Below are positions 10,364-14,379 of a stretch of 14,379 nucleotides of DNA, one piece after another. The DNA comes from Promethearchaeota archaeon (GTDB taxonomy: Archaea > Asgardarchaeota > Lokiarchaeia > Sigyniarchaeales > SOKP01): the NCBI GenBank assembly GCA_048938855.1, contig JBHLLT010000027.1, positions 24,438-38,816 of the forward strand, written 5' to 3'. The notes below the pieces were generated by a model, which was not told the DNA's origin, ran no database searches, and saw only the letters and a program-made list of their open reading frames with translations. The translations under genes and the position numbers were made by a program. Position 1 is the first letter of the stretch, and each line of letters opens with the position of its first letter.

Positions 10364-12556
10364 CTACATCACAATCTCAATAGAATCTGCTGGAATAAGT
10401 AATTTCTTGTTAATAAGCATTTCAATTGTATTGATGACTAAATCTTCATTTCTATAGTTAATTTTATTTAATAATGAAATTAATTTAAAGATACGATCTT
10501 CTTCTGATATTGAAAGAATTTCATTAAGAATTTTATATTCTATTTTAGATAACTTTAGATCTTTTTTGATATTTTCAAGGTCTGATTTTTCGATATTTAA
10601 TTTATAGAATATTTTGTAATCCAAATTAAAGAAATTATCAAGAAGGGGAGGAATTCCTACTTGAAATATATTTGTTTCATGATTCCAATCCTTTAATATT
10701 TCTGAATATTTTGCGTACACATTTAATCCAAAATTTAATAATTGTCTTTTTATTCTCTTAGAAGCTTTACTATTAAGAATAAGTACGGTTCTTAATTCCT
10801 CTACATCTGAGATAAGGCAATAGAAGTGCTTAAAATCTAATTCGAGAACATTATGTAGTCCATCAACTAAATTAGTTTCAATGCCTTTAGATTTAACATA
10901 ATCTTTACGAATAACTTCTTCCCCCACAATTGAGATTGCTTGAAGAAATCCCGAAAATATCGCTTTATTTCCTTCCATTAAATCTGAATAATTTCTAGAA
11001 AAAAGTGGTAATCCAGTAGGGTTATGTACTATAAGAATACCTTGAATATTTTCTGCATCCTTAAATTTTTGTGTCCTTGATAAAAGTGCTGTTCGCTTTT
11101 TAAGCTTTCTTGGTATTAATATATAAGATCTTAGACTTAAGCTGGTTAATAATGCAATTACCAATAATAAAATTAATATTATAAAAATTAAGGAATAAGG
11201 AAATGATTCATTGCTAAATTTAACATATGAAATTGTCAGATAGACATCATCAATAGAAAAATCCATAATTTGATTTAAAGCAAACGTATCTGCTAAAAAT
11301 ATAACAATTGAGAAAGTAAAATTAACATTAGTCAAAATGTAGGACTTTATTAGATCTGCTCCTAAATTTAAATCTTGAAAAGTAATTTCTATGTCTTTTA
11401 ATTTGATAGTTTTTTCAAGTTCATTATTATTTATTAGAATTCTTAATTCAGAATTAGGAGATAATGTTTCAGACCAGTTCATATTGACTTTATATTTGAA
11501 ATTGAGAGTTGCATCTAAGATTTTAATATTATCTCCGTTTATCGAATTTGCTTTCTGAATCCAAGAAATTGAAGTATATTGGTCAATCTTCTTTTCGTAT
11601 GTAAATGTAAAGTTGACAAATTTTATCATTAACTCATCAAAATTATCCAGATCCCAATAATTAACAACATTATCTTCAGTATGAATACTTATTCCTAATG
11701 AAATTGTGAAATTAGAATTATCAGTATCTAAAACCGATTCAAGATAAAAAGTCAAAACGTCCTGAGGTACCGAGATCATATAAGTATCATATAAATAATC
11801 TTTACCAGGTGGATCACCACTACCAATTTGCTCTGTTTGAAAATGAGCGATTTCATATATTTTATTTTTATCCAAATCTGAAATTGACACAAAAAATCTG
11901 ATATAATCTCCAACACTATACGTGTCGACAATGTTATTCGGCGATAATCTAGCGAGATCCCCATTTATATAATCATCTAAACGATCAAGGTTATTATCCA
12001 CTGTTGCATTGACAATAGCTTGAATAGAAACAGATTTTATAATATAGTCAGACATGTCAACATTCAGAGATATATTTTGATCCCATTGAACACTTGGATT
12101 CTGAATAGCAGTCGTATCATCAAATTCATGAGAAACCCTACAACCCTCAGATGTAATTTCGTATATATCAGGACGATTTGGAAAATTTGGATTATCTCTT
12201 TCAAACCAATTTAATGCGAGGGGTGGGTCTGCAATTAATGAATATGTTCTTTTGTCCCCTAAAATCTCATAGTGGGCTTCCCCAGAATGAATAGAAGCAT
12301 TTACGTCATTTAAATCACCCGTAAAAGAGGAGCTCCAATACTCTCCCCCAGAATTAAAATTGGGATTCTTGAGCCATTGTGTTGTATTCCTTGAAACAGC
12401 AGATATTGGATTTAGGTTTAATCCACCAGATTTTAAAGTATATGGCAGATAATTAAATGAACTTAGAAAAACCCAACTTAATGAAATTGGGATGAGAATG
12501 AGGACGATAAAAACTTTTTTTTTCAAAATTTTTCTTAAGGAAATTGGAAAATCCAT
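10364..12556 (-). CDS. Membrane protein: N-terminal signal/TM, about 400-aa beta-rich ectodomain, TM, cytoplasmic longin-like domain and probable winged helix
   Basis: Hydrophobic segments VFIVLILIPISLSWVFL and LIFIILILLLVIALLTSL (followed by RKLKKR). About nine N-x-S/T sequons lie between them. The cytoplasmic part ILIVHNPTGLPLF...IFSGFLQAISIVGEE...FYCLISD..LRTVLIL has the longin secondary-structure order. Confidence 0.75.
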   Translation of the reverse strand: MDFPISLRKILKKKVFIVLILIPISLSWVFLSSFNYLPYTLKSGGLNLNPISAVSRNTTQWLKNPNFNSGGEYWSSSFTGDLNDVNASIHSGEAHYEILGDKRTYSLIADPPLALNWFERDNPNFPNRPDIYEITSEGCRVSHEFDDTTAIQNPSVQWDQNISLNVDMSDYIIKSVSIQAIVNATVDNNLDRLDDYINGDLARLSPNNIVDTYSVGDYIRFFVSISDLDKNKIYEIAHFQTEQIGSGDPPGKDYLYDTYMISVPQDVLTFYLESVLDTDNSNFTISLGISIHTEDNVVNYWDLDNFDELMIKFVNFTFTYEKKIDQYTSISWIQKANSINGDNIKILDATLNFKYKVNMNWSETLSPNSELRILINNNELEKTIKLKDIEITFQDLNLGADLIKSYILTNVNFTFSIVIFLADTFALNQIMDFSIDDVYLTISYVKFSNESFPYSLIFIILILLLVIALLTSLSLRSYILIPRKLKKRTALLSRTQKFKDAENIQGILIVHNPTGLPLFSRNYSDLMEGNKAIFSGFLQAISIVGEEVIRKDYVKSKGIETNLVDGLHNVLELDFKHFYCLISDVEELRTVLILNSKASKRIKRQLLNFGLNVYAKYSEILKDWNHETNIFQVGIPPLLDNFFNLDYKIFYKLNIEKSDLENIKKDLKLSKIEYKILNEILSISEEDRIFKLISLLNKINYRNEDLVINTIEMLINKKLLIPADSIEIVM

Positions 12557-12716: not shown

Positions 12717-12745
12717 AAGATTTTTCTGCAGAAAATCTTTATTTA
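12717..12745 (+). promoter_or_regulatory. Palindromic candidate operator overlapping the BRE/TATA of the FGGY kinase gene
   Basis: Perfect 14-bp palindrome TTTTCTGCAGAAAA (12722-12735), extending to AAGA..TCTT (12717-12739) with one extra T. TTTATTTA at 12738-12745 lies about 24 nt before the ATG. Confidence 0.5.
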
Positions 12746-12768: not shown

Positions 12769-14379
12769 ATGTCTAATACACAAAGAAAATATATATTAGC
12801 GATCGACCATGGAATATGATCTACATTTAGGAGATTATACAGTACGGGCGGTCCTAAATCTGCAATTGTATCTACAACAGGAGAAGTAATTGATTGGGCA
12901 TTTCAAGAAACACCTATTTTCGCCTCTAAGGGTGGTGCTGTTGAACAAAATCCAGATGACTGGTGGAATGCTATTAAAAAAACCACTAAAGAAGTGATTG
13001 ACAGGGGACGCATACCAGTCGAAGATATAGTGGGTATTTGCAACACTAGTCAATGGAGTGGAACAGTTGCAGTCGATAAGGCTGGCAACCATCTTATGAA
13101 TTCCATTATATGGATGGATACGAGAGGAGCAAAATGGATAGAGCGATTTAATAAAGGAGTTCTCAAAGTTTCGGGATATAATATAAGAAAAATGTTAACA
13201 TTATTAAAAAGAGCATCTGGTGGTCCAACTTTACCTGGTAAAGATCCTATAGCACATATTTTAGTTATTAAAAATGAATTTCCAGAGATTTACGAGAAAA
13301 CGTTCATGTTTTTAGAGCCTCAAGATTTTATAAACATGAAATTAACAGGAAATTTCGCTGCGTCATTTGCATCTATTATTCTGCACTGGGTAACTGATAC
13401 AAGAGATCCTAACAATATCTATTATTCAAAAAAATTACTAAAGATGTTTAAAGTACCTCAGAATAAATTTCCACCTGAATTGAAAAACTCAACAGATATA
13501 TTAGGTCCAATTAAAAAAGAGTTAGCTGATGAGTTAGGATTAGAGAAAAATACTAAAGTTGTAATGGGTTCTCCAGATATACATTCTGCAACAATAGGAT
13601 CAGGTGCAGTTGGGAATTATGAAGGACACATATACATTGGGACAAGTGATTGGATTTTTCTACACATACCTCATAAAGGAGTAGACATTGCTCATAATTT
13701 GGGTACGTTACCTTCAGCCATACCTGGAAGATATCTAACAGGTAATGAACAAGAAATTGCTGGAGGTGCATTATCATTTCTAAGAGATAAAATTTTGTAT
13801 CATAAGGATGACCTATTGAAGGAAGAGGCTGTACCTGATGTATATAAAATCTTTGATCGAATTGTCGAGAATGTACCTGCTGGTTCAAATAATCTCATTT
13901 TTACCCCATGGCTTATAGGAGAACGATCACCTATCGATGATCCGACTATTCGAGGAGGTTTATATAATCTCTCTCTTGAAATGTCAAGAGAACATATAAT
14001 AAGAGCGATTTTTGAAGGTGTTGCATATAATGTAAGATGGTTATTGAATACTATTGAAAAGTTCATTAGAAAATGGGTCATAAAGGAGCGGCAATTAACT
14101 AAAAATAGTATTATCATGCCAGAATTAAACATAATTGGAGGAGGAGCTCAAAGTGATATTTGGTGCCAAATCATAGCAGATGTTCTTAACAGAAAGATTA
14201 AGCAAGTTTCAGATCCTATACAAGCAAATGCTCGAGGTGCTGCATTTATTGCTTCAGTAGGTTTAGGATACCTTAAATGGGATGAGATTCAGAAATGCTG
14301 TAAGATATCTACTACTTTTACACCAAATCCTGAGAATCGAGCAATCTATGATAAAATCTTTAAAGAATACTTAAATATC
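12769..14379 (+). CDS. FGGY family carbohydrate kinase (xylulokinase-like), interrupted by a 30-nt stop-containing insertion; 3' end runs off the right edge
   Basis: Not in the ORF track. MSNTQRKYILAIDHG-[I*STFRRLYS]-TGGPKSAIV...VEQNPDDWW...QWSGTVAVD...IIWMDTR...IGTS...PWLIGERSP...RAIFEGVAYN...IGGGAQSDIWCQIIADVL...ARGAA. A single frame whose only stop is TGA 12817-12819. Confidence 0.93.
12814..12843 (+). other. 30-nt intervening sequence (candidate mRNA intron) in the FGGY kinase DxGT motif
   Basis: Removing 12814-12843 (or 12813-12842, or 12812-12841) restores DHGTGGPK. The insert holds the in-frame TGA and an 8-bp stem (12815-12822 with 12832-12839). The insertion itself is clear; splicing is inferred. 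Confidence 0.6.

What the first reader, a model, noticed from the sequence alone, without database searches (positions are those of the whole stretch)
12801..12853. Candidate archaeal mRNA micro-intron: a 30-nt stop-containing hairpin splits the ATP-binding motif of an otherwise intact sugar kinase
Seen: the gene reads GAC CAT GGA [ATA TGA TCT ACA TTT AGG AGA TTA TAC AGT] ACG GGC GGT CCT AAA. Deleting exactly 30 nt gives ILAIDHGTGGPKSAIV, the FGGY phosphate-1 motif. The following ~510 codons have no stop or frameshift, so there is no other sign of decay. The insert folds as UAUGAUCU/AGAUUAUA (8 bp with one G-U, 9-nt loop). The flanking exons also pair with each other (GAUCGACC 12801-12808 with GGGCGGUC 12846-12853, 7 of 8 pairs). 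Between the two stems are two staggered 3-nt bulges, GAA (12812-14) and GUA (12842-44), around a UG/CA helix. Established: archaeal splicing endonuclease EndA cuts bulge-helix-bulge motifs after the second bulge nucleotide and RtcB ligates; cbf5 of some crenarchaea is the known protein-coding example. Cutting GA|A and GU|A here gives exactly the in-frame GGA|ACG junction. Caveat: the central helix is 2 bp rather than the canonical 4 bp, with an adjacent A-C mismatch, so the motif is relaxed at best. Inference: this is a spliced, possibly regulatory intron gating a metabolic gene in an Asgard archaeon.
Basis: partly seen in the sequence, partly recalled or inferred. Interest (0 to 1): 0.92.

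Follow-up and report, generated by a model that had tools for sequence, protein, structure and literature searches.

The report
tRNA-type mini-intron in Asgard sugar kinase
A 30-base, stop-containing hairpin splits the ATP-binding motif of an otherwise intact sugar-kinase gene in a Loki-type Asgard archaeon and one other species, and is very probably cut out of the messenger RNA by the tRNA-splicing enzymes, which I found published for only one archaeal coding gene (cbf5), although no spliced RNA was available to check.

Summary
The insert is real. DNA contigs from independent studies carry it. 34 orthologues lack it. One other Lokiarchaeia species (G035) has it at the same site with 5 of 30 bases changed; all five fall on paired positions, and one is half of a compensatory exon-intron pair.

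Only the two carriers have five rare G/C synonymous codons, each making a G-C pair in the exon-exon helix. The gene stays under purifying selection (dN/dS 0.07; 8 silent to 2 missense SNPs in an insert-carrying strain).

The intron is 12815-12844, with 3-nt bulges AA^U and UA^C around a 4-position helix; the spliced mRNA is the same. That helix has only 2 standard pairs here (3 in G035), so it fails the strict and the relaxed BHB definitions.

The host has a broad-specificity (alpha-beta)2 EndA and RtcB, and similar inserts in its single rnhB and rpl11 genes. Verdict: probably a spliced mRNA intron (about 0.8) that moved between allele lineages by recombination. A regulatory role is unsupported, and no RNA data were available. 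The scan noted this kind of intron earlier in many Asgard genomes.

The parts
12730..12745 (+). BRE/TATA-like promoter about 27 nt before the ATG; transcript probably leaderless (inferred)
   Evidence: sequence; conserved upstream of orthologues
12769..12814 (+). exon 1: ATG to the first base of the Thr16 codon, ending in ILAIDHG
12801..12808 (+). 5' strand of the exon-exon helix h, pairing with 12846-12853 (7 of 8 pairs, 5 G-C)
12809..12812 (+). 5' strand of the central helix H, facing 12839-12842: A.G, U-A, G-C, G.A here; A-U, C-G, G-C, G.A in G035
12813..12815 (+). 5' bulge AA^U, predicted cut between 12814 and 12815
12815..12844 (+).
12816..12838 (+). intron hairpin h' (12816-12824 with 12830-12838; 8 of 9 pairs here, 9 of 9 in G035) with a 5-nt loop
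12817..12819 (+). in-frame TGA, present in both carriers
12843..12845 (+). 3' bulge UA^C, predicted cut between 12844 and 12845
12846..12853 (+). 3' strand of the exon-exon helix h
12845..14379 (+). exon 2 of the FGGY-family carbohydrate kinase; runs off the window and ends on contig C56

Best explanation
The 30 nt at 12815-12844 are a tRNA-type intron in a pre-mRNA. The transcript folds into exon helix h, a loosened central helix, two 3-nt bulges and an intron hairpin. The host's (alpha-beta)2 EndA cuts after the second base of each bulge, and RtcB joins the exons. This restores the DHGT phosphate-binding motif of a roughly 540-aa FGGY kinase and releases a 30-nt, probably circular, RNA. The intron is a tolerated passenger in 2 of about 36 alleles, and recombination has put the same intron-plus-exon-1 patch on two unrelated gene bodies. 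Shown here: the insert, the second carrier, the geometry, selection on the gene and the presence of the enzymes. Inferred: cleavage, ligation, the exact cut sites, circularisation and the route of spread.
For: (1) G035 has the insert at the same site with 5 of 30 changes, all on paired positions, one of them half of a U-A/C-G compensatory pair with a silent exon change. (2) Exon helix: carriers have 7 of 8 pairs with 5 G-C; 34 non-carriers have at most 5 pairs and 1 G-C. All five rare synonymous bases make G-C pairs; 0 of 200,000 codon resamples reach this, and the joint probability by genome codon usage is 9e-6. (3) dN/dS is 0.066 against the nearest orthologue and 0.04-0.06 for G035, versus 0.035-0.08 among intron-free pairs. 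An insert-carrying strain differs by 8 silent and 2 missense SNPs (P 1.4e-4). (4) Two EndA subunits; the catalytic one aligns to Aeropyrum EndA including the K-P-R loop, which confers broad specificity (PMC3241643) and is reported for Asgard (PMC5829648). One RtcB. (5) The same genome's single rnhB and rpl11 genes carry BHB-shaped stop-containing inserts; the rnhB insert is in 30 of 31 loci read across the genus.
Against: The central helix has 2 standard pairs plus A.G and G.A, below even the 'relaxed' class of 3 of 4 (bioRxiv 10.64898/2026.10.13.758758). All 30 rnhB introns have 3 or 4, although this genome's own rnhB helix is three G-U pairs plus G.A. Two of the five differences from G035 are mismatches in this allele, so it may be decaying. 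The two carriers are one origin, so the covariation count has no statistical power. The gene is a mosaic, so selection measured on the body need not date from after the intron arrived.
Confidence: 0.8

Rival explanations
1. It began as a spliced intron and still works in G035, but in this lineage the A-U to A.G change has crippled the central helix. The gene is now poorly spliced or a very young pseudogene.
For: 2 of 4 standard pairs in H, the weakest among the well-placed mRNA inserts examined; two mismatches where G035 has pairs.
Against: The same base at 12842 is in an X6 contig whose differences all lie elsewhere, and in the X7 strain unless it is that contig's one unlisted difference. These strains differ mostly at silent sites. 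Both outer helices are stronger than in rnhB. No second close copy exists in this genome.
Confidence: 0.12
2. A random inactivating insertion (tiny mobile element or replication slip) in a dispensable kinase; both carriers are pseudogenes.
For: Very patchy: 2 of 154 genomes. G035 has a second intact copy.
Against: No other copy in the genome, in other GTDB species or in viral contigs. No target duplication beyond one base. It does not explain the helix-forming codons or the structure-keeping changes. There is no stop or frameshift elsewhere, where about 7 stops per gene would be expected at the divergence the inserts show (5.3% of substitutions make stops; my estimate, weakened by mosaicism).
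Confidence: 0.04
3. No splicing: the ribosome reads through the TGA (selenocysteine or Trp), hops over the hairpin, or restarts downstream.
For: The genome has a tRNA-Sec; the insert is in frame and the TGA is in both carriers.
Against: Read-through would put 10 residues into the DxGT loop, and every base change between the carriers alters that peptide (4 of 8 residues after the stop) while keeping the RNA pairs. No matching landing codon for a hop. The next in-frame start is at 12994 and drops the first 65 residues. Sister inserts in rpl11 and elsewhere shift the frame (31, 35, 37 nt).
Confidence: 0.04

Closest known systems
cbf5 pre-mRNA intron of Desulfurococcales and Sulfolobales (Yokobori 2009, PMC2738675)
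   Same: 16-44 nt insert in a coding sequence at a catalytic motif; unconventional BHB; cut between the second and third bulge base by a hetero-oligomeric EndA.
   Different: Different phylum and gene (a metabolic kinase). cbf5 is ancient and mostly vertically kept, with splicing shown by cDNA. This one is in 2 of 154 genomes, sits on two unrelated gene bodies, is one of several mRNA inserts in the genome, and has no RNA proof.
HVO_1309 5' UTR intron of Haloferax volcanii (Schwarz 2020, PMC7714728)
   Same: BHB site in an mRNA, processed by the splicing endonuclease, excised as a circle.
   Different: That intron is untranslated; this one breaks the reading frame, so splicing is needed for any full-length protein.
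Non-canonical tRNA introns of Asgard archaea (bioRxiv 10.64898/2026.10.13.758758) and this genome's own 22-45 nt tRNA introns
   Same: Same size class, AT-rich hairpin, repeated gains, same enzymes; the spliced exons form a stem with a 7-nt loop like an anticodon arm.
   Different: The host RNA is an mRNA; the central helix is weaker than that paper's relaxed class; that paper does not treat mRNA.
FGGY carbohydrate kinases (Pfam PF00370/PF02782; nearest NCBIfam XylB; nearest solved structure 3gbt gluconate kinase)
   Same: Both domains and the DxGT phosphate-1 motif once the insert is removed.
   Different: Below every equivalog cut-off (XylB 247 against 380 bits, scored on the intron-free G033 orthologue), so the sugar substrate is not known.

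Membership tests
BHB pre-mRNA intron (cbf5 type) | Short insert breaks the coding frame and its removal restores a conserved motif | tested here: met
BHB pre-mRNA intron (cbf5 type) | Two 3-nt bulges on opposite strands four positions apart, with cuts after the second bulge base at the exon borders | tested here: met
   register 12815-12844 in both carriers
Canonical BHB motif | All four central pairs standard | tested here: not met
   2 of 4 here, 3 of 4 in G035
Relaxed BHB class (3 of 4 central pairs) | At least three standard central pairs | tested here: not met
   not met in this allele (two purine-purine pairs); met in G035
BHB pre-mRNA intron (cbf5 type) | Flanking exon helix h and intron helix h' | tested here: met
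   7 of 8 and 8 of 9 pairs
BHB pre-mRNA intron (cbf5 type) | Host encodes a hetero-oligomeric EndA with the broad-specificity loop, and RtcB | tested here: met
BHB pre-mRNA intron (cbf5 type) | Spliced mRNA or EndA cleavage demonstrated | not testable with these tools
   needs RNA reads or an in vitro assay; see Tried and rejected
MITE or IS-derived insertion | Target-site duplication and other copies | tested here: not met
Selenocysteine or stop read-through | Conserved peptide across the TGA | tested here: not met
   all changes between carriers alter the read-through peptide; a SECIS element was not searched for
FGGY carbohydrate kinase | FGGY_N and FGGY_C domains with the DxGT motif | tested here: met
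Xylulokinase XylB (TIGR01312) | Equivalog score cut-off | tested here: not met
   246.7 against 380.25 bits on the G033 orthologue

The most novel reading that the evidence does not exclude
Lokiarchaeia routinely splice many mRNAs with the tRNA endonuclease, and the mini-introns are still being gained and spread. This one entered an anticodon-arm-like hairpin of exon sequence, travelled between species on a roughly 100-nt recombination patch, and is excised although its central helix has only two standard pairs. That would mean Asgard EndA accepts tandem purine-purine pairs when both outer helices are strong.
Probability: 0.5. Interest if true: 0.85.

Novelty: new variant of a known kind. Interest (0 to 1): 0.66.

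Why it matters
The papers I could search report endonuclease splicing inside an archaeal coding sequence only for cbf5. A frame-breaking intron in an ordinary metabolic gene, next to similar inserts in single-copy rnhB and rpl11, means mRNA splicing may be routine in a group close to the origin of eukaryotes. It also means gene callers truncate such genes or label them pseudogenes. This site is useful because it is rare among relatives: the intron-free alleles show what the target looked like. The two natural alleles (2 versus 3 central pairs) make a ready test of how loose a motif Asgard EndA accepts and of how such introns arrive.

Tried and rejected
No RNA holder was listed for this stretch, so splicing could not be looked at; this says nothing about expression.

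A pattern scan of metagenome contigs gave 34 hits, all chance and none in an FGGY gene. The intron pattern found only G035 in genome contigs and nothing in viral contigs. Rfam found nothing.

Ab initio genome scans for BHB plus broken frame had little power. The strict scan ranked this site second, behind one hit on a GC-rich stray contig, but its mirrored-geometry control also found it, and it missed rnhB and rpl11. The relaxed scan showed no excess over the control. No genome-wide count is claimed.

The first tRNA-intron calibration was mis-parsed and discarded. The repeat is rough: 11 of 24 with four central pairs, several boundaries uncertain. In one search a pattern mis-trimmed codons 16-25 of G013 and G015; the trees use codon 26 onward and one search used corrected sequences.

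An 18-nt match of the insert on contig C60 lies in unrelated coding sequence and is treated as chance. Literature searches for mRNA introns in Asgard found none; the library lacks most subscription papers.

Full report
OBSERVATION. The gene starts at ATG 12769 and reads MSNTQRKYILAIDHG, then ATA TGA. Removing 30 nt restores DHGTGGPKSAIV, and the frame then runs unbroken to the window end. Contig C56 overlaps the last 25 codons and adds 13 more, about 540 aa in all. The protein is an FGGY carbohydrate kinase, nearest to XylB but under every equivalog cut-off. The host is a 3.95-Mb, 30% GC genome whose congener G035 is titled Promethearchaeota archaeon, so it is a Loki-type Asgard archaeon.

NOT AN ARTEFACT. 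Logan contigs bridge the insert without a gap in X1 (0 differences, possibly the source sample) and in X7 (another study, 985 nt, 12 SNPs). Two overlapping contigs of a third study (X6) tile it.

DISTRIBUTION. Of 36 orthologous alleles read, 34 lack the insert. G035 (contig C19, 76% protein identity) has a 30-nt insert at the same site. Pattern searches found no third carrier in 135 genomes of the family or 154 of the order. G035 also has a second, intron-free copy; this genome has no second close copy.

STRUCTURE AND REGISTER. Four placements of the 30-nt deletion give the same protein here, three in G035. Only 12815-12844 gives the geometry EndA needs: exon helix h (12801-12808 with 12846-12853, 7 of 8 pairs), a four-position central helix (12809-12812 with 12839-12842), bulges AA^U and UA^C, and the intron stem h' (8 of 9 pairs, 5-nt loop). 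Because A12814 equals A12844, both registers give the same mRNA and the same circle. The central helix is A.G, U-A, G-C, G.A here and A-U, C-G, G-C, G.A in G035. By the rule of bioRxiv 10.64898/2026.10.13.758758 (four pairs canonical, three relaxed), this allele is neither and G035 is relaxed. That is the main weakness, so I do not file it as a canonical BHB member; it most likely works like one.

SELECTION ON THE RNA SHAPE. The inserts differ at 5 of 30 bases and every difference is on a paired position: G-U to G-C, an A.G mismatch to G-U (two changes), A.G to A-U, and U-A to C-G together with a silent His codon change in exon 1. Two sequences give no statistical power for covariation. The flanks are stronger evidence. 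Both carriers use GCG, ATC, GAC, ACG and GGC, and each of those third bases makes a G-C pair in h. Non-carriers reach at most 5 pairs and 1 G-C. None of 200,000 site-wise codon resamples reached 7 pairs, and genome codon usage gives 9e-6 for the five together. This is one evolutionary event, and it cannot tell whether the helix was selected after insertion or was the target for it. Neither is expected of a random knock-out.

SELECTION ON THE PROTEIN. dN/dS is 0.066 against the nearest orthologue and 0.04-0.06 for G035, within the 0.035-0.08 of intron-free pairs. The X7 contig, which carries the insert, has 8 silent and 2 conservative missense SNPs where 78% missense is expected without selection (P 1.4e-4). 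Pooled over three runs the count is 14 to 4.

MACHINERY AND CONTEXT. The genome encodes two EndA subunits and one RtcB. The subunit on C93 keeps the catalytic Tyr, His and Lys region and aligns to Aeropyrum EndA through the K-P-R loop. That loop confers cleavage of relaxed motifs (PMC3241643) and is reported for Asgard enzymes (PMC5829648). The C34 subunit lacks the His, as expected of a structural subunit (my reading). Following leads from earlier scan notes, I checked other genes myself. The single rnhB has a 30-nt stop-containing insert in its catalytic motif, present in 30 of 31 loci read across the genus with 3-4 central pairs; this genome's own has three G-U pairs plus G.A. The single rpl11 has two inserts (37 and 36 nt) that most relatives lack. 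AMP phosphorylase, a ribbon-helix-helix gene and a CaiB gene have BHB-shaped inserts with 3-4 central pairs, not compared with orthologues. So the cell very probably splices mRNAs already (inference).

HISTORY. The carriers are not sisters. On an rnhB tree this genome pairs with G007 (100/99), which lacks the kinase insert, and G035 lies further out. Downstream of the insert this allele groups with G033 and G035's with another clade; the AU test rejects joining them for codons 126-350 (p 1e-43) and 351-527 (p 5e-6), not for 26-125 (p 0.13). Yet the 97-nt patch from the promoter to codon 19 differs at only 4 positions between the carriers, against 11 or more for any other allele (6 if the helix codons are left out). 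Recombination has therefore combined the intron patch with different gene bodies. Whether the patch or the body moved is not resolved; many separate losses are possible but need five codons to revert each time.

MECHANISM. Transcription probably starts at or near the ATG (TATA-like box about 27 nt upstream; inferred). The first 85 nt fold; EndA cuts at 12814/12815 and 12844/12845; RtcB joins GGA A to CG; the intron is likely circularised (established chemistry, inferred for this site). Unspliced mRNA gives a 16-residue peptide. I put this at 0.8, a decayed and poorly spliced allele at 0.12, a random pseudogenising insert at 0.04 and recoding at 0.04. A regulatory role is not supported by anything found; rarity and the intact second copy in G035 fit a tolerated passenger better.

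COMPARISON AND NOVELTY. Closest is the cbf5 intron of Crenarchaeota, which the 2009 paper calls the only confirmed archaeal pre-mRNA splicing, with others only predicted (PMC2738675). A Haloferax 5' UTR intron was added in 2020 (PMC7714728). I found no paper on mRNA introns in Asgard archaea, in a library that lacks most subscription journals. The scan's own notes hold hundreds of similar claims in at least 97 genomes; these are leads, not support, and I used only what I re-tested. Class: new variant of a known kind. Interest 0.66: surprising and directly testable, but unproven at RNA level and with a sub-standard central helix.

Noticed in passing
L072 (G000:C81:88113-88742) and L091-L119: The single rnhB gene carries a 30-nt stop-containing BHB insert after DEAGR in 30 of 31 loci read across the genus; G106 lacks it.
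   Followed up: yes
L144 (G000:C49, rpl11 5' end); L124, L137, L125-L127, L135: rpl11 has two inserts in this genome (37 and 36 nt); each occurs separately in a few relatives.
   Followed up: yes
L123, L129, L131, L145, L146: A third frame-breaking insert site in rpl11, just after the GPTGIN motif, in five other genomes including G035.
   Followed up: no
L163 region G000:C74:52175-52204; G000:C64 and C55 minus strands; C49 minus strand near the contig end: BHB-shaped inserts in AMP phosphorylase (4 of 4 central pairs), a ribbon-helix-helix gene (4 of 4), a CaiB gene (two inserts) and probably cdhC; not compared with orthologues.
   Followed up: partly
window 12769-14379: The kinase gene is a mosaic: codons 126-350 are 77-93% identical in DNA to the G033 allele, while the promoter and exon 1 match G035 best.
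   Followed up: yes
window 12814-12838 against L116: The intron stem resembles the stems of some rnhB introns (shared ATATGATC start); may be chance among AT-rich hairpins, not tested.
   Followed up: no
G000:C49:41348-41440: tRNA-Sec is present in the genome.
   Followed up: no
G000 contigs C11, C18, C19, C29, C30, C37: Small GC-rich contigs that look like bin contamination; the window's contig is AT-rich and syntenic with relatives.
   Followed up: no
window 10364-12556 (-): 730-aa membrane protein with no Pfam hit, divergent from the kinase; a similarly placed long gene lies upstream in many relatives.
   Followed up: no
window 14305-14379 and L162:3-77: Contigs C25 and C56 overlap over the last 25 codons of the kinase and can be joined.
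   Followed up: yes
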